Source: a virus
Strand: one strand, 5' to 3'
IMG/VR virus record: IMGVR_UViG_3300030103_004672
Location: 1-64,000 of that record
DNA: 64,000 nt
Positions 25,945 to 57,680 of this stretch are shown one piece after another. A program made the position numbers and the translations under genes. Numbering within the stretch: position 1 is the first letter of the stretch; each line of letters begins with the position of its first letter. Under the pieces are notes generated by a model, which was given only the letters and a program-made list of their open reading frames with translations, was not told where the DNA came from and made no database searches.

Positions 25945-26409
25945 ATGGCAAATACAGATAATAAATGTGCTAATCTAGAAGTACAAGATCATCACAAACA
26001 TGCCGAAGATACATTTGGTTTAATTTATGACAAACAGCGAGAGCTCCAAGAAAGGTTAGGGTTTGATTTCTCTAATTATACTCTTAAGGACGTTGCTGAT
26101 TTTTGGTTTGTTAACAAACATGCTTTAGATGATGAAATGGGCGAAATGTTCGATGCACTTGGTGGTGTAAATGACGGTATAGCTAATGCAGCATGGAAGT
26201 ATTGGAAGAAAGATAATTCGAAGGCATCAAAAATGTCTGTTAAAGATCTTTCAGAAGCTGACCGCCTTGAGTTATATTATGAATGGATTGACGGTTTGCA
26301 TTTCTACATGAACTTTGCGATTGCACTAGGCATGACAAGCAAAGACATCGTAAATTTATACATGGCAAAGAATGCAGAAAATTTTGACAGACAAGAAAGA
26401 GGTTATTAA
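25945..26409 (+). CDS. All-alpha dNTP pyrophosphatase (dimeric dUTPase/gp56-like)
   Basis: Q.ELQ, DEMGE, WKYWK, EWIDGLHF, YMAKNAENFDRQERGY. Confidence 0.85.
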   Translation: MANTDNKCANLEVQDHHKHAEDTFGLIYDKQRELQERLGFDFSNYTLKDVADFWFVNKHALDDEMGEMFDALGGVNDGIANAAWKYWKKDNSKASKMSVKDLSEADRLELYYEWIDGLHFYMNFAIALGMTSKDIVNLYMAKNAENFDRQERGY

Positions 26410-26412
26410 TAT

Positions 26413-27816
26413 ATGCTATTAGATGTTTCGCAGGAAGACGGTAACTTGATCGTATCGTACTATAATTTTGAAGGTAAGACTAGATTTAAACATTACGAAT
26501 TAACATCAAAGGATTTGTACAATTGGTATCCATGTGATGCAAGTGATAAAAGAGCAGATCTTAAGATGAAGAACTGGGATGGTACACCAGTTAGAAAGGG
26601 TCGTACAAAGCATCTTAATAAGTATCGTGTTATTGAATACTTAGAGAACATACCTGAGCAAGATAAGAAGACTATATTCGGATATGATTTTCCTAAGACA
26701 TATTTTATTGATATCGAAGTTGAAGTAACTGATAGTTTCCCAGAACCTGAAAAGGCTGAGAATGCTATTACAGCTATTTGTATAGTAACGCCTGCAAATC
26801 AATGTGTAGTTCTCGCAACACGAGACATTCCAAAGGAGCAATATGGTGCTATTGAAAACCAGATAAATGAACACTTCAAAAGCACTGGTGAGACATTTAC
26901 ATTTGACATGAAATGTTTTAAGTCTGAATACGACATGCTATACACATTTCTTAAGTCATTTGTAAGAAAGTTCCCTATGATGACTGGTTGGAACTTTGTT
27001 AAGTTTGACTGGGCTTACATAGTAAATAGAGCAAAAAAGCTTGGGATAGATGCTTCAATAGCTTCACCCCTTGACAGGTTATTCAGCAACAATAATTATC
27101 CGTCACACGTTGGTGTTATGGATTACATGGAGATATATTCTAAGTGGGACAGAACTGTAAGTATCAAAGATGATCTTAAACTCGATACTGCTGGAGCTGC
27201 TGTACTAGGAATTAAGAAGATAAAGTATGATGGCACACTGCAGGATCTGTACGAGAAAGAATACTCAAAATACATATTTTACAATGCTGTAGATACGGCT
27301 CTAGTACAACTAATCCATAAGAAGATTAAGACGATGGATATTGCGTTGACAATATCACATATGAGTAGGATTAGTATATTTAAAGCTGCCTCACCTGTTG
27401 CAATTACAGAATCTTTGTTATGTAAAGAATTCTTAAAGCAAAACAGAGTTATGGCAACTCTTGATGAGAAGAATACAAAAAGCAGACAGTATGAAGGTGC
27501 ATTTGTAAAACAACCAATAACAGGCATGCATAACTCTGTTGCATGTTTTGACTTTGCATCACTTTATCCATCAATCATGAGACAGATGAATGTCTCTCCT
27601 GAAAGTTTTGTAAAGAAGGTAGACCCTAAACATACGTCTGATGAAATGGCTGATGATAGAATAGTTGCTATAAATGGAGTCGTTTATAAGTCTGAGGAAT
27701 CAATTCTAAAAAGGATTCTTGCAGATCTATATGGTCAGCGTAAAGAATATAAAAAGAAATCTTTCGAATTGCAGCAAAAAGCTTATGACCTCGAAAAAAC
27801 CTTACCAAAAACATAA
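26413..27816 (+). CDS. Family B DNA polymerase, N-terminal fragment (3'-5' exonuclease plus motif A)
   Basis: ExoI DIEVE, ExoII GWNFVKFD, ExoIII YNAVD, YEGAFV, DFASLYPSI; ends in the first fingers helix. Confidence 0.92.
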   Translation: MLLDVSQEDGNLIVSYYNFEGKTRFKHYELTSKDLYNWYPCDASDKRADLKMKNWDGTPVRKGRTKHLNKYRVIEYLENIPEQDKKTIFGYDFPKTYFIDIEVEVTDSFPEPEKAENAITAICIVTPANQCVVLATRDIPKEQYGAIENQINEHFKSTGETFTFDMKCFKSEYDMLYTFLKSFVRKFPMMTGWNFVKFDWAYIVNRAKKLGIDASIASPLDRLFSNNNYPSHVGVMDYMEIYSKWDRTVSIKDDLKLDTAGAAVLGIKKIKYDGTLQDLYEKEYSKYIFYNAVDTALVQLIHKKIKTMDIALTISHMSRISIFKAASPVAITESLLCKEFLKQNRVMATLDEKNTKSRQYEGAFVKQPITGMHNSVACFDFASLYPSIMRQMNVSPESFVKKVDPKHTSDEMADDRIVAINGVVYKSEESILKRILADLYGQRKEYKKKSFELQQKAYDLEKTLPKT

Positions 27817-30699: not shown

Positions 30700-31452
30700 G
30701 TGGATAATTTAAACATTTATATAGTAGGACCATGTAGTGTGGAAAGTAGCTTTATTTTTGGATGCGTTGCAGAGAAAATGACTAGCGCGATACCAGACGA
30801 TAAGAACTGGTATTTAAAAGGAAGCTTTGACAAAGCGAACAGAACTAGTGTCGAAGCGCCTAGAGGTCCTGGAATTTATGATTCTATTGATATTTTTGAA
30901 GATATTAAAGAAAAATTCACAAATATTAAAATCACTACCGATATCCACGAGCCCTGGCAGGCTGAAAAATTGAGGCACATTGTTGATATGATCCAAGTTC
31001 CAGCATTTTTATGCAGACAAACTGATTTGATAAGAGAATGTGCACATAATTTTGATGTGATAAATGTAAAGAAAGGCCAATGGATGGATCCTGGATCAAT
31101 GCGACATGTGGTTGAGAAGATACGTTATTATAATGAAGATGCAAAGGTATACATCACAGAACGTGGCACTCAGTTTGGATACGACAGGGTCATAGTAGAC
31201 TATAGAGCTGTTGATATCATGAAGGAATTTTGCGATGGTGTCATATTGGATTGTACACATTCAACTCAACAGTTAGGGCAGGGAACTACTGGTGGTAATA
31301 GAAATCTTGCAAAGGCATATGTTAAAACTGCAAGAGAATTTGGTTATGATGGAATTTTTGCAGAAACACATCCAGCTCCAGATACTGCAATTTCTGATAA
31401 GGATAGCCAAATAGACTTAGAGTGGATGGCTAGCGTGATAAATACTATATGA
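30700..31452 (+). CDS. kdsA: 3-deoxy-D-manno-octulosonate 8-phosphate synthase
   Basis: GPCSVES, SFDKANRTS, PAFLCRQTDL, NVKKGQ, DCTHS, ETHP. Confidence 0.9.
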   Translation: MDNLNIYIVGPCSVESSFIFGCVAEKMTSAIPDDKNWYLKGSFDKANRTSVEAPRGPGIYDSIDIFEDIKEKFTNIKITTDIHEPWQAEKLRHIVDMIQVPAFLCRQTDLIRECAHNFDVINVKKGQWMDPGSMRHVVEKIRYYNEDAKVYITERGTQFGYDRVIVDYRAVDIMKEFCDGVILDCTHSTQQLGQGTTGGNRNLAKAYVKTAREFGYDGIFAETHPAPDTAISDKDSQIDLEWMASVINTI

Positions 31453-31898
31453 AATATTCAAGATCCGCAGGACTGGCAATCATATACAAAGGGACAGTAT
31501 TAATGGGGCATCCTAGTAATGGATCTTGGGTTGGTAGATATAGTATTCCAAAAGGTCACGTTGAAGATAGCGAATCGATTTTAGAGGCTGCGATTAGAGA
31601 GACAAAGGAAGAGGTTGGCATATCAGTTCCACTTGAAATGATTGACAAAACCCCTTACAGAGTTTACAGAATAGGTAAGCACAGCATTAAAACAGTTTTT
31701 TATTATATAGTAAAAATTGACGATCTTGGGCAAATCGGACTAGATACGATAAAGGTACCAAAAGAACAGCTTCAGATAGAGGAAATCGACTGGGCTGGAT
31801 TTATAACATACAAAGAAGCTAAGCTTAGATCATCTAGGTATCAATTAGCACTGATAGATAACTTACTTAATTTAGGATTATTAAACCCAACTTTATAA
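31449..31898 (+). CDS. Nudix hydrolase
   Basis: Nudix box PKGHVEDSESILEAAIRETKEEVG. Confidence 0.9.
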   Translation: MKYSRSAGLAIIYKGTVLMGHPSNGSWVGRYSIPKGHVEDSESILEAAIRETKEEVGISVPLEMIDKTPYRVYRIGKHSIKTVFYYIVKIDDLGQIGLDTIKVPKEQLQIEEIDWAGFITYKEAKLRSSRYQLALIDNLLNLGLLNPTL

Positions 31899-31907
31899 AA
31901 AAATATT

Positions 31908-32087
31908 ATGATGGAAAAATTTGAAAACATTGAGACTTTGATTGAATCAGCAAGAGTAGAGGCTGAAAAATTCTATCAGAAAGGAAACAAAACAGCTGGC
32001 ACTAGATTAAGAAAACTCATGCAGGATTTAAAGAACGCTGCACAAGAAGTTAGAGTAGAAGTACAAGAGACTAAGGCTAACCTATAA
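31908..32087 (+). CDS. Histone H1-like protein, Hc1 family (59 aa; not in the ORF track)
   Basis: Translated by hand: MMEKFENIETLIESARVEAEKFYQKGNKTAGTRLRKLMQDLKNAAQEVRVEVQETKANL; KF..KGNK.AGTR.RK signature. Confidence 0.85.
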   Translation: MMEKFENIETLIESARVEAEKFYQKGNKTAGTRLRKLMQDLKNAAQEVRVEVQETKANL

Positions 32088-32112
32088 ACAAGTAGGATCT
32101 TTTTCGTATAAT
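32085..32112 (+). promoter_or_regulatory. Putative middle promoter TAAACA-N16-TATAAT
   Basis: Conserved bipartite motif, 4 nt before ATG 32117. Confidence 0.7.
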
Positions 32113-32116
32113 ATTT

Positions 32117-33199
32117 ATGGAAAAGCATACGCAGCTAAAGTACTTAACAGACTACATTAGTGATAAATCTACAAGTATAGCAATCGCTGCGCTTGTAGGT
32201 AAACTAAGTCCAAAGGCGAGTTCACACAAATCAGGTTGGGCATACCACTTAGCAAACCAGTGCCATAATGCCGGTTACGAAAACGTCACAGTAGTAACAG
32301 ATACTACCACAAATTGGGATGATTTCGATGTCGTGCTAATTGAGCATGGGATGGAGTTCAAGGGCACTTTTAATATTTTCGGTGGTGCAAATGATGATCT
32401 TTATTATCAAATAACACGGATCTTTAGTTCTGCTAAGATGTTCAGCCTTCATCATGATATGCCTTGCATAGGTTCTTTGATAGAAAAAAGGCTGCATACT
32501 GGAAGCGACTTATTCAAGACGCTAGAAAGAAAAATTGAAGAGGTTAAAAAGATTTGTGCAAACAATATTACCAGAATTGATTGCATCGAAAAAACCGACA
32601 AGCTATGTTTTGGTGACAGCCACTCATTTAGCCAATACACACCAGGATATATGACTAGTCGCCACGACGGTCTAACTATGCACGGTGCATTAAAACGAGG
32701 TCTAGACACATATGTCTATCCTTGGATAAAGTCTCTAAGAATATACCTTGGAAATATCGACGTTAGGCATCATCTTATGCGACAGCATAATCCAGAAATG
32801 GCTGTTGATAAATTACTAGCTCAATATGAAGATGGTCTTATGAAGCTACAAGAATCAGGAGTTGTGGATATAGAAGTTGTGCACACTTTACCAATAGAAA
32901 ACGAGAGTAGAGCTTTGCCAAAAACTGGATACTACAAAGGTACTCCATTTACTGGAACATGGGAAGAACGAACTGATTTGGTAAAGCAAATTAATAAAGG
33001 TATTGATAAAATGTGTGAAAGAAATGGTTGGAGTTCTTATAAGCATCCTGAGGTATTTTATAACCATATAGGTGAACTTCCGTTTGACGTTATGGAAAAG
33101 CCAAAATCAGTACATATCGCTCGAGAATACTATAGATGGGATTTAGTAAACAATCGTAAAAACAAAAAGCTGATCAAGCAATCGATGTCTTTGTTTTAA
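32117..33199 (+). CDS. Putative DNA-modifying enzyme: beta-glucosyltransferase-like N-domain fused to an SGNH/GDSL domain
   Basis: N-domain IAI...DDFDVVLI...FNIFGG...LHHD; SGNH blocks FGDSHS, LGNID and KSVH; ends QSMSLF. Confidence 0.55.
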   Translation: MEKHTQLKYLTDYISDKSTSIAIAALVGKLSPKASSHKSGWAYHLANQCHNAGYENVTVVTDTTTNWDDFDVVLIEHGMEFKGTFNIFGGANDDLYYQITRIFSSAKMFSLHHDMPCIGSLIEKRLHTGSDLFKTLERKIEEVKKICANNITRIDCIEKTDKLCFGDSHSFSQYTPGYMTSRHDGLTMHGALKRGLDTYVYPWIKSLRIYLGNIDVRHHLMRQHNPEMAVDKLLAQYEDGLMKLQESGVVDIEVVHTLPIENESRALPKTGYYKGTPFTGTWEERTDLVKQINKGIDKMCERNGWSSYKHPEVFYNHIGELPFDVMEKPKSVHIAREYYRWDLVNNRKNKKLIKQSMSLF

Positions 33200-33203
33200 A
33201 ATT

Positions 33204-34406
33204 ATGGAAATAAAAACAACCAAATACTACGACGAATATTTGAGGTATTTTAATTTAGCAAAGAGGCAACAGGATTCGAGCAATCTCGGACATGTGCCAC
33301 ACGCAGATTCAGATCTAGATGATGAACTAATGCATCACATTGAACTATACGATGTGGTAGAGAGAAAATATGCCGGGTTTTCACAGATTGTTAACGATTG
33401 TTTTTACGGATGGTCAGAAGATCACCCGTATTGGTCAAGAATGAATGCAGGTCTTTATACAACTCAAAGAAAGCAGGTTGCAACGAACTGGACTGGCAAG
33501 CAAAATCATTTTGATCTGGCAGAATGGCTTTATGTTTTTATACTTCATAGAGTCACAGGATCTGCTATTAACTATGCAACTAAGCCAAGTGGCTATCATA
33601 ACACCCTTCTATTTGATTTATGGCAATCTGATACTATAGAACAAATGTGCAAACAGGTTAAGGAGGCAACAAAATCTTTTTACACATCTGTTGGCTATCA
33701 GTTTCCAGCATTCCCAAAGCCACCTGCGCCAAAATCAAATGCTGATTTTAGCTTTAGCACAAAGAGAGAATACGTGTATAAAAGAGGCGGCGATTACTTT
33801 CTATGTGAGTTCGCACCTAGACTTGCAAGGGATATGGCGCATTTTCTTGAGCAGGGTGGCAAAAAGGATCTTAGAGAGCTTGGAGAATGGATGTTTAAAT
33901 GGAATAAGGACAATGGACTAAGAGCTTACAAATTTCAATATGCAGCTGTTATTGCCGATGTTGCAGATTGGTTTCCACAATATATCAATAGGGAATCTAT
34001 GTTTTTCTATGGAACAAACGCGGTAGAGTGCATTGGTTATCTAGCAGATCCAATAAATGGCAAGGGCAAAAAATCAGAGCCTTTTTTAGATGCAGTCATG
34101 ACAAGAATTTATGAAGATACTGGATCACTACCATATAATGCCGAGGATGTTGCATGTGACTTTATTCGTTGGATAGAAAATTACATGAGACCAGGTGCGG
34201 ATTATAAGCATATCAACATGGACACTCTTTGGAACTCATCTACAATAATTGATCATCCGTTTGGTAGACAGAGGGCAATGCTTGAGTTAGGGCTATTAGA
34301 ATCTTTCAATGGAATGACCAATCACCCATCTGATGACAAAGTTATAAAAGCAGCTGGTATTGATGTAGATGAGTACAAAAAACGTGTTTCGAAACTTTAT
34401 AATTAA
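33204..34406 (+). CDS. Amino acid:DNA transferase / aGPT-PPase-like protein (HhH DNA-glycosylase fold)
   Basis: FQYAAVIAD, YGTNAVECI and AEDVACDFIRW resemble the F...D, GPGA..GL and E..LCE..KY motifs of that family; adjacent to a PLP enzyme. Confidence 0.6.
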   Translation: MEIKTTKYYDEYLRYFNLAKRQQDSSNLGHVPHADSDLDDELMHHIELYDVVERKYAGFSQIVNDCFYGWSEDHPYWSRMNAGLYTTQRKQVATNWTGKQNHFDLAEWLYVFILHRVTGSAINYATKPSGYHNTLLFDLWQSDTIEQMCKQVKEATKSFYTSVGYQFPAFPKPPAPKSNADFSFSTKREYVYKRGGDYFLCEFAPRLARDMAHFLEQGGKKDLRELGEWMFKWNKDNGLRAYKFQYAAVIADVADWFPQYINRESMFFYGTNAVECIGYLADPINGKGKKSEPFLDAVMTRIYEDTGSLPYNAEDVACDFIRWIENYMRPGADYKHINMDTLWNSSTIIDHPFGRQRAMLELGLLESFNGMTNHPSDDKVIKAAGIDVDEYKKRVSKLYN

Positions 34407-34410
34407 GATT

Positions 34411-35298
34411 ATGCCACATAACAAACATACAGATAGTCTATCTAATCAAGATCTAAATCTAATGATGCCTAATCGTGAAGCATGGCTTGATTTAGCTGGA
34501 GATTGGGAAGATCCATTTGATGCTCCTACAATTATTGAACATGATGGCTTTAAAGTCGTTAGAGAAGATATGATGGGATTTGGATCAAAGTGTAGATTTG
34601 GAGACATCTTAGTACAAAAGGCAGCTTCAGATACTCTTGTATATGTACAGCCTCGATACGGATTTGCAGGTATATCGCTTGCATATCTTGCCAAAAAGTA
34701 CAATAAAAAATTAGTATTATTTAGTCCTAGCCAAAAACAAATATCAGATCACCAGGCAATATGTATAGAAAGAGGAGCTACAATGAAATTTAGAAGAATT
34801 GCAGCAATGCCAAATCTAAATAAAATAGCCGCAGATTGGGCTAAAGATAATGGTGCATTTTTCATTCCACTCGGATTAAGACATCCGTTAGTAACTGCAG
34901 CTGCCGTAAAAGTTGCATATGATTTAGCAGAGAACAATGGCTATCCAGAAGAAGTTTGGTCTGCAATATCAACAGGTGTGCTTCAACGATCTTTACAAAT
35001 AGCGTGGCCAGATTCTAAATTCAATGCAGTTGCAGTTGCTAGAAATATAAAAAGAGGTGAAAGGGGAAAGGCAAAGATGTGGTCACATCCAAAAGCATTT
35101 AACCAAAACGTGGATCAAAAATACTATCCTCCATTTCCTTCTGCGCTGAACTATGATGCAAAGGCTTGGGAATTTATGAAAAGAAATGGATCTCCTGGCG
35201 CTTGGTTTTGGAATGTTGGGGGTGATCCTAAACCTGAATTCGATGAAACAAAAGACAAAACTGATTCACAGAGGGAATGGGGAGAAATAAGAGATTAA
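34411..35298 (+). CDS. Fold-type II PLP-dependent enzyme (ACC deaminase/D-cysteine desulfhydrase-like; phage DNA-hypermodification type)
   Basis: VRED, GSKCRF (PLP lysine), AISTG, YDAKAW, WNVG. ATG 34411 is preferred. Confidence 0.8.
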   Translation: MPHNKHTDSLSNQDLNLMMPNREAWLDLAGDWEDPFDAPTIIEHDGFKVVREDMMGFGSKCRFGDILVQKAASDTLVYVQPRYGFAGISLAYLAKKYNKKLVLFSPSQKQISDHQAICIERGATMKFRRIAAMPNLNKIAADWAKDNGAFFIPLGLRHPLVTAAAVKVAYDLAENNGYPEEVWSAISTGVLQRSLQIAWPDSKFNAVAVARNIKRGERGKAKMWSHPKAFNQNVDQKYYPPFPSALNYDAKAWEFMKRNGSPGAWFWNVGGDPKPEFDETKDKTDSQREWGEIRD

Positions 35299-35339: not shown

Positions 35340-36101
35340 ATGGCAAGTACAGTATCACTTAATAAAATTAACGGGTATGAATTTCAATCATACGTCAAAA
35401 AACTATTATCAATTGACAAATTTATTTTCATCAAAATAGGAAATGAAACCACAACTTCTTCAGTATACCTACCTGAACGAGATGCTGTTAAATTGGCAAA
35501 CATTCCTACTTCTGACCTATTTGATTTTGATCAAGAGCTTGATGGTGATATAAAAGTTAGTTTTTACAATGGATCTAAAGTAGTAGATGCAATTTCACAC
35601 TTTAAAGGTGAAGTAACTGGTGATGTTGTCTATGATAATATAGATGATGCTAATCTTGCAGCAGACTTTGTGATTCAAAATGACAAACTTAAAATTAATC
35701 TAGCTTGCGCAGATCCAAGTTTATCATTTATGGAAATGAACAAAGAGGAGATGTCGAGAGCATTTGGTGTTGAGAACAAGTTATTTGAGTTTGACCTTTT
35801 AACTGTTGATGCGGATAGAATTAAATCACTATTTAATCTAGAGAAGGAAGAAGATGTATTTTCTTTCTCAATTAGTGAACGAGGAGTTAATGTAGTTGGT
35901 GCAGCTTATGATGCAGTCATTGCTACTAAGTTTGCAGGAGATGTTCCTGTAGGCACTAAGGTCACTGCATATAAAAAGTATTTCAATTTGTTAGACAAAG
36001 AAAACTATAAAGTGATTGTTTGTGAAAACAAAATTGTATTTAAATCAATGGATACAGACACTCTACTCACAGTTGCTGTAGCTGTAGTAGATGAGGACTA
36101 A
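35340..36101 (+). CDS. DNA polymerase sliding clamp (gp45/PCNA-like)
   Basis: About 250 aa, acidic, two-domain alpha/beta pattern, ADPS linker, ENYKVIV; replication context. Confidence 0.6.
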   Translation: MASTVSLNKINGYEFQSYVKKLLSIDKFIFIKIGNETTTSSVYLPERDAVKLANIPTSDLFDFDQELDGDIKVSFYNGSKVVDAISHFKGEVTGDVVYDNIDDANLAADFVIQNDKLKINLACADPSLSFMEMNKEEMSRAFGVENKLFEFDLLTVDADRIKSLFNLEKEEDVFSFSISERGVNVVGAAYDAVIATKFAGDVPVGTKVTAYKKYFNLLDKENYKVIVCENKIVFKSMDTDTLLTVAVAVVDED

Positions 36102-36215: not shown

Positions 36216-37025
36216 ATGAATCACAAGAAAATACATGACTTAATAATCAAAAGGGCAAAAGAGAGAACTTTAGAAGGCTACTCCGAAAAACACCACATTA
36301 TACCAAAATGCCTAGGCGGAACTGATGATCAAGATAATCTAGTACATCTAACAGCAAGGGAGCATTTTATCATACACAAACTACTATGTGAGATCTACCC
36401 AAATGAATCAAAACTCCATTGGGCTGCATTTATGATGGCAACTGCACGAGGCAAACACATGGACAACCGAGATTACCGAATAGGCTCTAGAGAATATGAA
36501 AGGCTTAGAGAATCTTTAGAGATTAGTGACGAGACTAGGCGAAAATCAGGTATTGCAAACATTGGTAACAAGTATAGACTAGGAAAAAAACATTCTGACG
36601 AAAGCAAAAAAAAGATGAGCCAGGCAGCTATGGGAAATACAAATTCGAGAGGCTATAAACACACTGAAGAAGCAAGAAAAAATATGAGTAAGGCTGCGAA
36701 GGCAAGAGATCGTAAACCACACTCTGGGGAAACTAAGCAAAAAATGAGTGATGCCTGGAAATTAAAAAAGGAACAGGGCTACGAGTCACCGATGAAAGGT
36801 ATAAAGAGGCCTGAAGAAGTAAAGAAGAAAATATCTGCTTCTAAAACTGGTGTTAAGCGTGGCAAGTTCTCGCAAGAATGGCTTGATAACATGTCAAAAT
36901 CTCTAAAGGGAAAAGCGAAGGGCAAAATATGGATTAACAACGGTGTAAAGGGTAGCATGATACTCCCAGATGAGCCAATTCCAGAAGGCTGGACACGTGG
37001 CATGCTTAGAAGAAAACAAAATTGA
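36216..37025 (+). mobile_element. Free-standing HNH homing endonuclease with NUMOD3 repeats (MobE-like)
   Basis: EKHHIIPKCLGG...NLVHLTAREHFIIH; repeated H(S/T)xEx(K/R)xxMS motifs. Confidence 0.9.
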
Positions 37026-37045: not shown

Positions 37046-38182
37046 ATGGATCGAAAATTAGAAAAAAAGTACGAAGAGTTAGCAGAGCTTAAAAAATTAG
37101 CAGGCGAGTATTATAACTACGAACAAGGAATCAAGCTCATGCTTAATTCGATCTACGGTGCATTTGGAAATCCATACTTTTATTTCTTCAATGTTGACAT
37201 AGCAGAAACTATCACACTTCAGGGTAAAGATGCTATTCTTTACACAGAAGAATTAGTAAACAAATACTTTAGAGAATTTTGGCATTTAGATACGGATGCA
37301 CACAATAAGATGGGTATCACCGTTACTGGAAAGATCAAGCAACCTGTAGGAATCTATATTGACACTGATTCAATTTACATGAAATTTGAAGAAGTTATCA
37401 AAAACTCAGACTGGGAAGGTGATTCTAAAACTTTTATACTTAATTTATACAAGCATAGATTAGGAGAATACATTGAACGCATTCTACAAAAATATGCTGA
37501 TGACAACAACGCCGAAAACTTCTTAAGCTTCGAACTAGAAAGCATTGCAAAGAATGCTATCTGGTTAGCTAAAAAGAAATACATGCAAAATATAGTTTGG
37601 AAAGATCCTGACTTACATTATGATGATCTTACTAAGATCAGCGCTAAGGGATTTGAAATTATTCAATCATCTACTCCGATATTTGCAAGGCAGAAGTTAA
37701 AAGACTTATTAAAATACATCTTTTCTGTTGAAGAGCTTAGCATGAAGGATTTTGCAGGTCGTCTTAAAGAAATAAAGCGTGAGTTCAAGCTTGCAAACGT
37801 TGAAAATATAAGTTTTGCAAAAAAGGTAAACAATTATCAAAGGTATGTTCTAAACGACATAGATAGATTTGAGATTACTAAAGGATGCCCTATCGGTGTA
37901 AGAAGTGCAGGATATCATAATTACTTGCTAAATAATTCAAATGCAAAAATGAAATACAAACCGCTTGGTAATGGCGAAAAGTTAAAAATGTATTTTTCTA
38001 CAGATAGGCACTGTGATGTATTTGCATATGCACCTGGTGATTATCCTTATGAATTTGCACCTGAAATAGATTACGATGTGCAATTTGAGAAAACTATATT
38101 AGATCCAATAAATCGGGTTATTAAGGCGATGGGATTCAAGCCATTTGATCGTAACTTGATTTATGCAGTGTCTTTATTCTAA
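37046..38182 (+). CDS. Family B DNA polymerase, C-terminal fragment (motifs B and C, thumb)
   Basis: KLMLNSIYG, YIDTDS, KKKY, KGFEIIQSSTP; ends AVSLF. Confidence 0.92.
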   Translation: MDRKLEKKYEELAELKKLAGEYYNYEQGIKLMLNSIYGAFGNPYFYFFNVDIAETITLQGKDAILYTEELVNKYFREFWHLDTDAHNKMGITVTGKIKQPVGIYIDTDSIYMKFEEVIKNSDWEGDSKTFILNLYKHRLGEYIERILQKYADDNNAENFLSFELESIAKNAIWLAKKKYMQNIVWKDPDLHYDDLTKISAKGFEIIQSSTPIFARQKLKDLLKYIFSVEELSMKDFAGRLKEIKREFKLANVENISFAKKVNNYQRYVLNDIDRFEITKGCPIGVRSAGYHNYLLNNSNAKMKYKPLGNGEKLKMYFSTDRHCDVFAYAPGDYPYEFAPEIDYDVQFEKTILDPINRVIKAMGFKPFDRNLIYAVSLF

Positions 38183-56717: not shown

Positions 56718-57680
56718 ATGAAAAATATAAGTTCAATACTACTTACTGAAAAATATAGGCCCAAGAATTTAGATGATTTAATAGTACCTGAAAGGCTTAA
56801 CAATAAACTTAACAAAGGAATCTATCAACATTTGCTGCTATATGGATCTCCAGGAACTGGTAAGACTAGCGCTGCTAAGGCATTGGTGAAACACTTTAGT
56901 CATCCATACCTTTATATTAACGCTTCAACCGATACTAGCATAGATGTCGTCAGAACAAGAATCACGGATTTTTGTGCTAACAGGTCAGTGATGGATGCAT
57001 CTAACAAAATGAAAATAATTCTACTAGATGAGATCGATGGCGTATCTGATCAGTTCTTTAAAGCATTAAGAGCGACTATGGATCAGTTTTCGGCCAATGC
57101 CCGCTTTGTTGCAACATGCAACTATATAAACAAGGTACCAGATCCTATTCAGTCTAGGTTCGAACTAATAGACTTCGATTTTACAAAAGAGGAGGAGGCT
57201 GAAATCATGAAGTCATACATTATACGTGTCCTTAACATTTGTAAAGATGAAGGGATTAAGATCGATAAGTATGCGGCTGTAGAGCTTGTAAAAAGAAAAT
57301 TCCCAGATTTAAGAACAATACTTAATATGCTTCAGGGATTTAAGTCACAGGGTGATGATATGATCACTGTTGAAGATATTAAAAAGTTCAACTCTATATA
57401 CAAGGATGTGTTTGATTTAGTTATTGACAATACAGATCCTGTTAAAAATTATCAATATATGGTGTCTAATTACTCAAACAGGGTTGATGATGTTTTATCA
57501 TCTCTTGGTAGTGAGTTTATAGAATACATTCAGCAGGAGTTTAGTTCATACATTTCACTTATACCACAAATAGTTGTATGTGTCGCTAAGTACCAATCAC
57601 AACGTCAATTTGTTGTTGACCCGGTAGTGTCTATGTTAGCTTGTATTTATGAACTGCAATCAATAATTAACGAAGCATAA
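56718..57680 (+). CDS. Clamp loader large subunit (gp44/RFC-like)
   Basis: EKYRPK, GSPGTGKT, INAS, LDEID, IQSRF, PDLR. Confidence 0.92.
   Translation: MKNISSILLTEKYRPKNLDDLIVPERLNNKLNKGIYQHLLLYGSPGTGKTSAAKALVKHFSHPYLYINASTDTSIDVVRTRITDFCANRSVMDASNKMKIILLDEIDGVSDQFFKALRATMDQFSANARFVATCNYINKVPDPIQSRFELIDFDFTKEEEAEIMKSYIIRVLNICKDEGIKIDKYAAVELVKRKFPDLRTILNMLQGFKSQGDDMITVEDIKKFNSIYKDVFDLVIDNTDPVKNYQYMVSNYSNRVDDVLSSLGSEFIEYIQQEFSSYISLIPQIVVCVAKYQSQRQFVVDPVVSMLACIYELQSIINEA

What the first reader, a model, noticed from the sequence alone, without database searches (positions are those of the whole stretch)
32085..35298. Candidate new replication-coupled DNA hypermodification pathway (three-gene cassette)
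Seen: three tightly packed genes (4-nt gaps) behind a replication-class promoter, directly upstream of the sliding clamp and between the polymerase halves. They encode (1) a BGT-like/SGNH fusion, (2) an aGPT-PPase / amino acid:DNA transferase-like protein and (3) a fold-type II PLP enzyme. Known: in ViI- and M6-type phages, 5-hmdU in DNA is activated by a kinase, substituted with an amino acid by the transferase, and decarboxylated by a PLP enzyme. No kinase is visible in this window, and an SGNH enzyme is not part of those pathways as I know them. Inference: the fusion protein either activates the hydroxymethyl group by acylation in place of phosphorylation, or acylates/deacylates the amine product, giving an undescribed modified base.
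Basis: partly seen in the sequence, partly recalled or inferred. Interest (0 to 1): 0.9.

Follow-up and report, generated by a model that had tools for sequence, protein, structure and literature searches.

The report
Phage cytosine hypermodification three-gene cassette
An uncultured marine T4-like phage carries three conserved genes, distant relatives of enzymes that decorate thymine in other phages' DNA, that travel with the hydroxymethylcytosine pathway instead and probably build an undescribed modified cytosine.

Summary
The three genes exist as described: 32117-33199 (g1), 33204-34406 (g2) and 34411-35298 (g3), with 4-nt gaps, behind a recurring promoter-like motif and between the two DNA polymerase halves.

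- **g3** belongs to the PHROG of phage M6 gp52, the PLP decarboxylase that acts on DNA. It keeps the PLP lysine.
- **g2** is a divergent member of the aGPT-Pplase/HMUDK_hel superfamily. It keeps that family's Glu-x3-Cys motif but passes no Pfam threshold.
- **g1** is weakly GDSL/SGNH-like. Its BGT-like N-domain is not established.

g1 and g2 occur fused in other phages. The trio is present in 50 of 50 related loci with enough flank. In 14 divergent loci it is followed directly by a thymidylate-synthase homologue.

All 26 such neighbours, and this genome's own copy, carry the residues reported for cytosine hydroxymethylation. No 5-hmdU-type DNA kinase was found.

My reading is a post-replicative, kinase-less 5-hydroxymethylcytosine hypermodification pathway. 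The chemistry is inferred, not shown.

I found no paper describing it. Earlier reports of this scan reached the same reading on other genomes.

New here: cultured Aeromonas phages (44RR2.8t, 31) carry a g1-HMUDK_hel fusion, which gives a laboratory test system.

The parts
32085..32112 (+). promoter-like site TAAACA-16-TATAAT, 4 nt before the g1 start
   Evidence: The same pattern occurs 5 times in the window against 0.39 expected, including just before ORF 35340 and just before the gene at 56718.
32117..33199 (+). g1: 360-aa protein of phrog_13881. The C-terminal half is GDSL/SGNH-like (GDSHS, GNID, a late invariant His). The fold of the N-terminal half (SHK..W, FN.FGG) is not established. Proposed to act on the 5-hydroxymethyl group of cytosine in DNA.
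   Evidence: - phrog_13881 at 2.1e-61.
- 733 homologues.
- Invariant residues.
- Lipase_GDSL weak hits in 13 of 38 family members, best E 0.0044; none in g1 itself.
- Atlas GDSL cluster at rank 22, score 0.91.
- Fused to g2-type or PF18723-type domains in other phages.
33204..34406 (+). g2: 400-aa divergent member of the aGPT-Pplase/HMUDK_hel superfamily. Glu314-x3-Cys318 are invariant. Proposed base-flipping transferase acting on (activated) 5hmC.
   Evidence: - No Pfam or PHROG match.
- 932 homologues and 142 clusters at 50% identity.
- Invariant E314 and C318.
- Atlas neighbour clusters carry PF18723 in 11-36% of members.
- hhalign score 32.3 against the M6 gp55 family. The positive control scored 29.6, the negatives 13-18.6, and the highest of 20 shuffles was 25.6.
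34411..35298 (+). g3: 295-aa fold-type II PLP enzyme of the M6 gp52 family (phrog_7093). Proposed to tailor, most likely decarboxylate, an amino-acid adduct on DNA.
   Evidence: - phrog_7093 at 6.7e-37; M6 gp52 matches the same PHROG at 2.2e-159.
- PALP 20.3 bits, below the cut-off.
- The Ser-Lys-x-Arg lysine is conserved in 9 of 9 aligned sequences, and the C-terminal PFP..YD.KAW..FWN.G block is shared with gp52.
- The lysine aligns with the PLP lysine region of cysteine synthases.
25945..26409 (+). dUTPase_2 (all-alpha NTP pyrophosphatase) gene just before polymerase half A. Candidate dCTPase of the pathway. In relatives it directly follows g3.
   Evidence: Pfam PF08761 at 6.4e-10. A homologue lies within 3 kb downstream of g3 in 51 related loci. 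The dCTPase role is inferred.

Best explanation
The three genes form a post-replicative hypermodification cassette for 5-hydroxymethylcytosine (5hmC) in the phage's own DNA. It parallels the thymidine hypermodification pathways of phages M6 and ViI but has no DNA kinase.

Shown or well supported:
- The genome encodes a thymidylate-synthase homologue with the residues reported for a dCMP hydroxymethylase.
- It also encodes an NTP pyrophosphatase and NMP-kinase-like genes, so 5hmC is probably incorporated during replication.

Inferred:
1. g1 binds 5hmC in DNA and, through its SGNH-like domain, esterifies the hydroxymethyl group. Acylation is my preferred guess. This gives a leaving group, the role that phosphorylation plays in the thymidine pathways.
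2. g2 works with g1, and is fused to it in other phages. It flips the base, attacks C6 with Cys318 (Glu314 assisting, as in the Pplase2 enzymes), expels the leaving group and adds a nucleophile, probably an amino acid.
3. g3, a PLP enzyme of the M6 gp52 family, then decarboxylates or otherwise trims the adduct.

The product would be an aminoalkyl-type 5-substituted cytosine that protects the DNA from host nucleases.
For: **Substrate**
- The genome's TS homologue (genome 77839-78708) best matches CMP and dCMP hydroxymethylases in the PDB (MilA 4.5e-27, T4 gp42 2.6e-17).
- It falls far below all thymidylate-synthase equivalog cut-offs.
- It has Asp at the ThyA-N177 position (PTD, like T4 RND; M6 dUMP hydroxymethylase has Asn), Asp at the L143 position (DFVC) and keeps D169 (RSND).
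- Lee 2026 (PMC13326640, sections 24 and 28 read) gives these as the marks of cytosine specificity, hydroxymethylation and non-5hoC chemistry.

**Linkage**
- All 26 TS homologues next to g1-containing clusters have the same Asp and RSND.
- 14 divergent loci have the order g1-g2-g3-TS.
- The 7 of these loci (6 of the 14, plus L146) whose ORFs I listed run DUF6378-like ORF, g1, g2, g3, TS, small MazG-like ORF. They hold no kinase-sized Walker-A ORF.

**Conservation**
- The trio is in 65 of 80 related loci. The 15 exceptions are all cut short.
- It is in 50 of 50 loci with at least 1.5 kb upstream and 4 kb downstream.

**g1-g2 coupling**
- They are fused in 7 proteins.
- Of 80 divergent g1 loci, 16 have a g2-type partner and 55 a PF18723-type partner. 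The other 9 are truncated.
- 53 of 53 loci with at least 4.5 kb downstream have a partner.
- The PF18723 partners score 35-51 bits against a cut-off of 25.

**g2 family**
- Glu-x3-Cys is shared with M6 gp51 and gp55.
- Mutating the Cys or the nearby Glu abolishes AADT activity (PMC8989533 passages).
- The Cys is catalytic and the Glu binds metal (PMC13458397 passages).

**g3 family**
- A g3-like domain lies inside a gene annotated 'DNA modification methylase' in Erythrobacter phages.

**Position**
- The cassette lies among replication genes, behind the promoter motif shared with neighbouring replication genes.
- Thomas 2018 (PMC6024577 passages) describes the polymerase-uvsX region as the plastic site of hmC-modification genes in T4-like phages.
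Against: - No chemistry was observed, and the DNA may carry plain 5hmC.
- g2 matches no Pfam model itself. My profile-profile score is modest (probability 14.9%).
- g2 is closer to PF18723 than to the proven transferase clade. The PF18723 protein of M6 (gp55) was dispensable in the in vitro reconstitution (PMC8989533 passages). So g2 could be a helper rather than a transferase.
- The SGNH assignment of g1 rests on weak hits in relatives only. Block III reads GNID rather than GxND, and no Asp sits 3 residues before the His.
- The BGT likeness is 48 columns at probability 4%.
- No acyl donor can be named.
- Two NMP-kinase-like genes sit beside the TS homologue. They showed no detectable similarity to T4 or M6 sequences, so a DNA-kinase role for one of them is not excluded.
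- The record is only about 32% complete.
- Many g1 cassettes use other accessory genes (inositol-1-phosphate synthase, FkbM methyltransferase, UDP-galactopyranose mutase). These look like small-molecule donor synthesis. g3 could likewise make a donor rather than act on DNA.
Confidence: 0.6

Rival explanations
1. g1 alone is the modifying enzyme. It puts a final group (acyl or other) on 5hmC, as glucosyltransferases do. g2 is only a DNA-binding, base-presenting helper, and g3 synthesises or trims the small-molecule donor off DNA.
For: - g1 is the constant element across cassettes whose accessory genes differ and look like donor synthesis.
- M6 gp55, the nearest characterised relative of g2, was dispensable in vitro.
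- Phage 25 has g1 beside a UDP-galactopyranose mutase. The hel2, HMUDK_hel and g2 models found no partner among the three phage 25 ORFs tested there (p227nc, ORF225c, p225nc).
Against: - g2 keeps the Glu-x3-Cys motif invariant in 43 of 43 sequences, which a passive helper need not do.
- g3 belongs to the family of an enzyme shown to act on DNA.
- A g3-like domain lies within a gene annotated as a DNA methylase.
Confidence: 0.2
2. The enzymes act on free nucleotides (hydroxymethyl-dCMP or its triphosphate) before replication, not on DNA.
For: - The cassette neighbours nucleotide-pool genes: RNR, a dUTPase_2 protein, and TS in relatives.
- It is expressed from a promoter class shared with replication genes.
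Against: - The characterised relatives of g2 and g3 act on DNA with a flipped base (PMC8989533 and PMC13458397 passages).
- A polymerase would have to accept a bulky dNTP.
Confidence: 0.08
3. The cassette targets 5-hydroxymethyluracil/thymine, as in M6 and ViI.
For: The closest characterised homologues of g2 and g3 work on 5-hmdU-derived bases.
Against: - None of the 26 neighbouring TS homologues has the uracil-type Asn.
- The genome's own TS is cytosine-type.
- No 5-hmdU kinase was found.
Confidence: 0.04
4. The three genes are not a DNA-modification system. They would be auxiliary metabolic or cell-envelope genes that happen to sit in a plastic region.
For: - None of the three passes a curated family threshold.
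- KdsA-like and Nudix genes lie just upstream.
Against: - Linkage to TS homologues and NTP pyrophosphatases holds across very different phage backbones.
- g1 is fused to Pplase-type domains.
- g3 is kin to M6 gp52.
- The KdsA and Nudix genes do not travel with the trio in relatives.
Confidence: 0.05

Closest known systems
Thymidine hypermodification pathways of Pseudomonas phage M6 and Salmonella phage ViI (5-HMUDK kinase, aGPT-Pplase2 = amino acid:DNA transferase, aGPT-Pplase1/HMUDK_hel paralogue, PLP decarboxylase; Lee et al. 2021, PMC8989533)
   Same: - A TS-family hydroxymethylase supplies a 5-hydroxymethyl pyrimidine.
- There is a Pplase-superfamily protein with the Glu-x3-Cys motif.
- There is a PLP enzyme of the same PHROG as M6 gp52.
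- In relatives, two Pplase paralogues occur side by side (g2 and 'X').
- The genes cluster near replication genes.
   Different: - The base is cytosine, not uracil.
- There is no P-loop DNA kinase.
- An SGNH-like protein (g1) occupies the kinase's place and is the partner fused to the helical domain.
- g2 passes neither the PF18723 nor the PF18724 threshold.
- No radical-SAM, FAD or acetyltransferase tailoring genes are present.
T4 5hmC pathway (gp42 dCMP hydroxymethylase, gp56 dCTPase, gp1 dNMP kinase, alpha/beta-glucosyltransferases)
   Same: - A cytosine-type hydroxymethylase is present.
- An NTP pyrophosphatase and NMP-kinase-like genes are present.
- The decorating genes sit in the polymerase-uvsX region, where T4 keeps beta-gt.
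   Different: - No glucosyltransferase is present (PF09198 not found).
- The decoration is predicted to be non-sugar and made by three unrelated enzymes.
Aeromonas phages 44RR2.8t and 31 ORF233c (phrog_17781), and phage 25 ORF225c
   Same: - These are g1 homologues (33% identity over 89% of g1).
- In 44RR-type phages g1 is fused to a PF18723-type domain.
- Both phages checked (44RR2.8t and 25) have hydroxymethylase-type gp42 homologues and no BGT.
   Different: - They have no g3.
- The partner domain is the canonical PF18723 clade, not the g2 clade.
- The neighbours are a sodium:solute symporter (44RR) or a UDP-galactopyranose mutase (phage 25).
RB69/DLP3 arabinosyl-5-hydroxycytosine pathway (Lee et al. 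2026, PMC13326640)
   Same: A TS homologue with cytosine-specific Asp feeds a post-replicative decoration encoded near the polymerase.
   Different: Those TS homologues carry Asn at the D169 position and make 5-hydroxycytosine. Here D169 is kept (RSND). The decoration there is by glycosyltransferases.

Membership tests
Amino acid:DNA transferase, PF18724 (aGPT-Pplase2) | Match to the Pfam model above its cut-off (26.2 bits) | tested here: not met
   g2 has no match at E <= 0.1, and none in the genome at E <= 10. One of 66 relatives matched at E 0.00099. M6 gp51 as control scores 159.6 bits.
Amino acid:DNA transferase, PF18724 (aGPT-Pplase2) | Catalytic Cys with a Glu four residues before it | tested here: met
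   E314 and C318 are invariant in 43 of 43 g2 relatives and at least 90% conserved in 66 more distant ones. The spacing is the same in M6 gp51. Their role comes from PMC8989533 and PMC13458397 passages.
Amino acid:DNA transferase, PF18724 (aGPT-Pplase2) | Works downstream of a 5-hmdU DNA kinase (PF18748) encoded nearby | tested here: not met
   PF18748 gave only a 10.7-bit P-loop hit in an unrelated gene. The 7 compact loci listed hold no kinase-sized Walker-A ORF.
Amino acid:DNA transferase, PF18724 (aGPT-Pplase2) | Helix-hairpin-helix, glycosylase-like fold | not testable with these tools
The Atlas holds no model. A profile search of PDB sequences found nothing at E <= 10.
HMUDK_hel, PF18723 (aGPT-Pplase1) | Match to the Pfam model above its cut-off (25 bits) | tested here: not met
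   g2 has no match. One of 43 relatives matched at E 0.01, and likewise one of the 66 more distant relatives.
HMUDK_hel, PF18723 (aGPT-Pplase1) | Profile-level collinear similarity to bona fide members | tested here: inconclusive
   - hhalign of A1 against a 22-sequence M6 gp55 family alignment: score 32.3, E 0.0018, 263 columns, probability 14.9%.
- Two true PF18723 groups against each other score 29.6.
- Reversed or unrelated profiles score 13-18.6.
- None of 20 column shuffles reached 32.3 (highest 25.6).
- Atlas neighbour clusters carry PF18723 in 11-36% of members.
SGNH/GDSL hydrolase-acyltransferase fold (g1 C-terminal half) | Match to PF00657 or PF13472 | tested here: inconclusive
   g1 itself has none. 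Thirteen of 38 family members hit PF00657 at E <= 1 (best 0.0044), and one hits PF13472 at 0.025. It is the only family hit by more than two members. An Atlas GDSL cluster sits at rank 22, score 0.91.
SGNH/GDSL hydrolase-acyltransferase fold (g1 C-terminal half) | Blocks I (GDS), II (G), III (GxND) and V (DxxH); block definitions recalled | tested here: inconclusive
   G166-D167-S168 and H333 are invariant, and G212-N213-I214-D215 is invariant. But block III reads GNID, not GxND. No Asp sits 3 residues before H333; E327 is invariant instead.
T4 beta-glucosyltransferase, PF09198 (g1 N-terminal half) | Match to the Pfam model or to T4 BGT | tested here: not met
   - PF09198 is not found in the genome at E <= 10.
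- It hits 0 of 38 family members at E <= 1 and 1 of 66 fused relatives at E 0.078.
- hhalign against T4 BGT aligns 48 columns, E 0.0099, probability 4.2%.
- BLASTP gives E 0.40.
- A PDB profile search found nothing.
Fold-type II PLP enzymes / M6 gp52 family (g3) | Family model match and the PLP-binding lysine | tested here: met
   - phrog_7093 at 6.7e-37, the PHROG of M6 gp52.
- Ser-Lys-x-Arg is conserved in 9 of 9 sequences.
- Pfam PALP gives only 20.3 bits against a cut-off of 35.
- The best PDB hits are cysteine synthases at E 0.1.
T4-type dCMP hydroxymethylase (genome's TS homologue, outside the window) | Asp at ThyA N177, an acidic residue at L143, and Asp kept at D169 (criteria from PMC13326640 sections 24 and 28) | tested here: met
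   PTD, DFVC and RSND. The best PDB matches are CMP and dCMP hydroxymethylases. Activity was not tested.

The most novel reading that the evidence does not exclude
An SGNH-fold enzyme acylates the hydroxymethyl group of 5hmC in duplex DNA. It thereby replaces the nucleobase kinase as the activating step. A new clade of Pplase-type Cys enzymes then swaps the ester for an amino acid, which a PLP enzyme decarboxylates. The product would be an undescribed aminoalkyl-substituted cytosine, common in marine T4-like phages. The same g1-Pplase core, with other accessory genes (inositol-phosphate synthase, galactofuranose genes), would make a whole family of unknown cytosine adducts, including in cultured Aeromonas phages.
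Probability: 0.3. Interest if true: 0.9.

Novelty: new variant of a known kind. Interest (0 to 1): 0.8.

Why it matters
All post-replicative hypermodifications built with Pplase-type enzymes that I found in print start from 5-hydroxymethyluracil and need a DNA kinase. This cassette would carry that chemistry over to cytosine and replace the kinase with an esterase-fold enzyme. That would mean a new way to activate a nucleobase in DNA and a new natural base.

The genes are abundant. g2 has 932 homologues and g1 has 733 in metagenome protein sets. So a sizeable share of marine T4-like phage DNA may carry a base that sequencing and restriction-based methods misread.

The finding also bears on an old open point. 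Petrov et al. 2010 (PMC2993671, passages read) noted that Aeromonas phages 44RR, 31 and 25 have genes 42 and 56 but no glucosyltransferase, and that it was not yet known whether phages of this kind carry other modifications of their hmC. 44RR, 31 and 25 encode g1 homologues, fused to a PF18723 domain in 44RR and 31. The core pair can therefore be tested in a cultured system.

Tried and rejected
**Structure and gene context**
I used the search for related loci instead.

**Sequence-level searches that found nothing**
- Profile searches of PDB sequences with g2 and g1.
- Megablast and tblastn of the cassette and of g2 against 50,697 phage records.
- tblastn of a compact-module g2 against the same records.
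- NCBIfam for g1, g2 and g3.

**Single-sequence comparisons, uninformative**
- hhalign of A1 against M6 gp51, gp55 and 44RR ORF233c.
- BLASTP of g3 against M6 gp52 found only the C-terminal block (E 0.007).

**Readings considered and set aside**
- A metallophosphoesterase reading of g1 (GDxH ... GNxD). I set it aside because motif spacing fits poorly, no such Pfam family appeared among 38 members, and GDSL appeared 13 times.
- A 5-hydroxycytosine pathway. I rejected it on the D169 criterion.
- One of the two NMP-kinase-like proteins as a DNA kinase. I found no similarity to M6 gp54 or to anything in T4, 44RR or M6. This remains unresolved.

**Literature**
- Searches for a description of this cassette listed no such paper.
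- Iyer et al. 2013, which defined the aGPT-Pplase families, is not held. I know it only through Lee 2021.
- I did not ask for supplementary files. The supplementary alignments and contig lists of Lee 2021 and Lee 2026 could contain related contigs.

Full report
**What is there.** The window is the first 64 kb of an 88.7-kb IMG/VR record of a T4-like phage, estimated about 32% complete.

- Three co-oriented ORFs lie at 32117-33199 (g1, 360 aa), 33204-34406 (g2, 400 aa) and 34411-35298 (g3, 295 aa). The longer reading of g3 from 34369 overlaps g2.
- All 7 aligned relatives of g3 begin at the position of 34411. Both gaps are therefore 4 nt.
- TAAACA-16 nt-TATAAT lies at 32085-32112.
- The pattern TAAACA-N15-17-TAWAAT occurs 5 times in the window, all on the + strand, against 0.39 expected. 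None of 100 shuffles reached 5.
- Besides the g1 copy, copies lie just before ORF 35340 and just before the gene at 56718 (ORF positions). I take that gene for a clamp loader from its N-terminus as recalled; no call tested it.
- The cassette lies between the two halves of a family-B polymerase.
- The ORF after g3 was called a sliding clamp. It has no Pfam, PHROG or T4 gp45 similarity, so that label rests on position only.

**g3.**
- Pfam PALP scores only 20.3 bits against a cut-off of 35.
- g3 matches phrog_7093 at 6.7e-37.
- M6 gp52 matches the same PHROG at 2.2e-159. Lee et al. 2021 list gp52 as the PLP-dependent decarboxylase of the M6 thymidine pathway (PMC8989533, passages).
- The Ser-Lys-x-Arg lysine and a C-terminal block are shared by all 9 aligned sequences, gp52 included.
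- In phmmer against PDB sequences the lysine region aligns with that of cysteine synthases, at E 0.1 only.
- In Erythrobacter phages a g3-like stretch lies inside a gene annotated 'DNA modification methylase'.

**g2.**
- There is no Pfam, PHROG or NCBIfam match, no PDB match with a 43-sequence profile, and no match in 50,697 phage records.
- The protein is nevertheless common. It has 932 homologues at E <= 0.001 among 2268 candidates and 142 clusters at 50% identity in 1.84 billion representatives.
- Evidence for the aGPT-Pplase/HMUDK_hel superfamily:
  - Atlas neighbour clusters carry PF18723 in 11-14% of members. One carries PF18723 in 36% and PF18724 in 12%.
  - One of 43 relatives hits PF18723 at E 0.01. 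Among 66 more distant relatives, one hits PF18724 at 0.00099 and one hits PF18723 at 0.01.
  - A local hhalign of the g2 alignment against a 22-sequence alignment of the M6 gp55 family gives a collinear 263-column alignment, score 32.3, E 0.0018, probability 14.9%.
- Controls for the hhalign result:
  - Two groups that both pass the PF18723 cut-off score 29.6 against each other.
  - Reversed and unrelated profiles score 13-18.6.
  - Twenty column shuffles reach at most 25.6.
- E314 and C318 are invariant in 43 of 43 sequences. M6 gp51 and gp55 have the same Glu-x3-Cys spacing.
- Lee 2021 report loss of activity on mutating the Cys or the nearby Glu. The 2026 dapT paper names the Cys as catalytic and the Glu as a metal ligand (PMC13458397, passages).
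- I therefore file g2 as a new clade of this superfamily, not as a member of either Pfam family.

**g1.**
- g1 matches phrog_13881 at 2.1e-61 and the first 335 positions of the 795-position phrog_17781. It has 733 homologues.
- Invariant residues across 38 diverse members include H37, G90, R125, G166-D167-S168-H169, T187, Y210, G212-N213-I214-D215, R217, H219, R265, P268, R285, E327, H333 and Y339.
- g1 itself matches no GDSL or BGT model.
- Thirteen of 38 family members hit PF00657 at E <= 1 (best 0.0044). No other family recurs in more than two members.
- The Atlas lists a GDSL cluster at rank 22.
- The BGT likeness is confined to about 48 columns around a D-Y-D...N-F-F-G-G stretch (probability 4.2%). 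I regard it as unproven.

**Coupling and conservation.**
- Seven proteins fuse a g1-like half to a g2-like half.
- Among the 80 best of 587 related IMG/VR stretches, 65 have all three genes. The 15 exceptions are cut short. All 50 loci with enough flank have the trio.
- The order is g1-g2-g3 in 58 loci and g2-g3-g1 in 7. g3 follows g2 directly in 24. These loci are close relatives (67-80% identity in g2).
- Where there is an insert between g2 and g3, it holds a 325-377-aa paralogue of g2 (E 3e-7 to 6e-6 against the g2 model). Sometimes a LOG-family gene is there too.
- A second scan, seeded with the fused proteins, gave 80 divergent g1 loci (the best 80 of 298):
  - 16 have a g2-type gene.
  - 55 have a gene 1.7-3.4 kb downstream that belongs to PF18723 proper. 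The three I scanned score 35.4, 43.1 and 50.6 bits against a cut-off of 25.
  - 9 end less than 2.6 kb after g1.
  - All 53 loci with at least 4.5 kb downstream have a partner.
- g1 thus always travels with a Pplase-type protein. In the thymidine systems that is the position of the P-loop kinase. Pfam names PF18723 the helical domain of that kinase.

**Which base.**
- The record's TS homologue lies at genome 77839-78708, outside the window. It best matches CMP and dCMP hydroxymethylases. It has Asp at the N177 and L143 positions and keeps D169.
- Lee et al. 2026 (PMC13326640, abstract and sections 24 and 28 read) give N177D as cytosine-specifying and an acidic L143 as hydroxymethylating. They give D169N as diagnostic of 5-hydroxycytosine synthases.
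- Of the 16 g2-type loci, 15 have g3 and 14 have a TS homologue directly after it. Twelve further loci have a TS homologue within about 1 kb upstream of g1.
- All 26 of these TS homologues show RSND and the cytosine-type Asp. M6 dUMP hydroxymethylase shows Asn.
- The 7 compact loci whose ORFs I listed run: DUF6378-like ORF, g1, g2, g3, TS, a roughly 100-aa MazG-like ORF. The last label is from sequence appearance only. None holds a kinase-sized Walker-A ORF.
- In the close relatives g3 is followed by the dUTPase_2 gene and polymerase half A.
- No PF18748 kinase is present in this record.
- Two NMP-kinase-like genes and an ATP-grasp gene flank the TS homologue. Their roles are open.

**Mechanism.** The steps I infer are given under Best explanation. 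None is shown.
- The strongest points are the substrate (5hmC) and the functional unit (g1 with g2, plus g3).
- The weakest are the chemistry of g1 and whether g2 transfers a group or only presents the base. M6 gp55, of the nearer clade, was dispensable in vitro.

**Cultured relatives.**
- Aeromonas phage 44RR2.8t ORF233c (795 aa) is a g1 homologue fused to a PF18723-type domain. The fusion scores 5e-92 against my model of that clade, and Pfam gives E 0.0036.
- Nineteen cultured Aeromonas phage records carry this domain.
- Phage 25 has a stand-alone g1 homologue beside a UDP-galactopyranose mutase.
- Both phages have hydroxymethylase-type gp42 homologues, no BGT and no g3.
- Petrov et al. 2010 (PMC2993671, passages) record that 44RR, 31 and 25 have genes 42 and 56 but no glucosyltransferase genes. 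Of phages of this kind (they name RB69 and JS98) they say it is not yet known whether other hmC modifications exist.

**Novelty.**
- Six literature searches listed no paper on this cassette. The SGNH term had zero occurrences in the listed 5hmC-phage papers.
- The scan itself has met the same cassette on other genomes, and its follow-up reports reached the same general reading. I saw these only after my own analysis.
- It is a new variant of a known kind of system, differing in the base, in the activating partner and in the Pplase clade.

Noticed in passing
window 30700-32087: Just upstream of g1 lie a KDO8P/DAHP-synthase-family gene (PF00793, 2.6e-41), a Nudix hydrolase and a 59-aa Hc1 histone-H1-like protein (PF07432, 3.6e-22). 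tblastn with these three proteins found no match in any of the 80 related loci. A chlamydial-type histone-like protein in a phage is unusual.
   Followed up: partly
L175:9099-12646 and about 55 similar loci (e.g. L143, L164, L184, L186, L194): An alternative cassette runs g1, myo-inositol-1-phosphate synthase (PF01658, 80 bits), a small 132-aa ORF, an FkbM methyltransferase, a PF18723 protein, dUTPase_2 and the polymerase. It suggests a cyclitol-derived cytosine adduct.
   Followed up: partly
L053:11143-13423; L020:10351-11025: Some close relatives add a GT2 glycosyltransferase plus a UDP-galactopyranose mutase after g3, or a LOG/SLOG-family gene between g2 and g3. The island is combinatorial.
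   Followed up: no
L014:9212-10300, L020:9206-10339, L053:9224-10276, L029:3861-4838: A 325-377-aa paralogue of g2 sits between g2 and g3 in 41 of 65 related trios (gaps of 0.7-1.8 kb). It is absent from this window.
   Followed up: partly
L085:3393-4916 (Aeromonas phage 44RR2.8t): A sodium:solute symporter gene (PF00474, 6.2e-53) lies directly upstream of the g1-PF18723 fusion gene. It may import the donor molecule.
   Followed up: no
window 35340-36101: The ORF at the expected sliding-clamp position has no Pfam, PHROG or T4 gp45 similarity. It is conserved at 31-38% in related loci.
   Followed up: partly
window 26413-27816, 36216-37025, 37046-38182: The DNA polymerase is split into two genes 9.2 kb apart. 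An HNH-type endonuclease-like ORF lies just before the second half. In most related loci polymerase half A follows the cassette, not precedes it.
   Followed up: no
genome 76769-79680 (L003:270-3181): A guanylate-kinase-like gene, a dTMP-kinase-like gene (only the P-loop matches), the dCMP-hydroxymethylase-type TS homologue and an ATP-grasp gene lie in a row. The ATP-grasp enzyme could add a further amide-linked group.
   Followed up: partly
alignment A3 (one of P0133-P0262): One distant g2 relative carries a Carb_kinase/NAD(P)H-hydrate dehydratase domain (2.7e-34). I did not identify which protein, or whether it is a true fusion.
   Followed up: no
L207 (Erythrobacter phage vB_EliS_R6L gp1): A g3-like PLP domain (34% identity over 87% of g3) lies inside a roughly 810-aa gene annotated 'DNA modification methylase'.
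   Followed up: no
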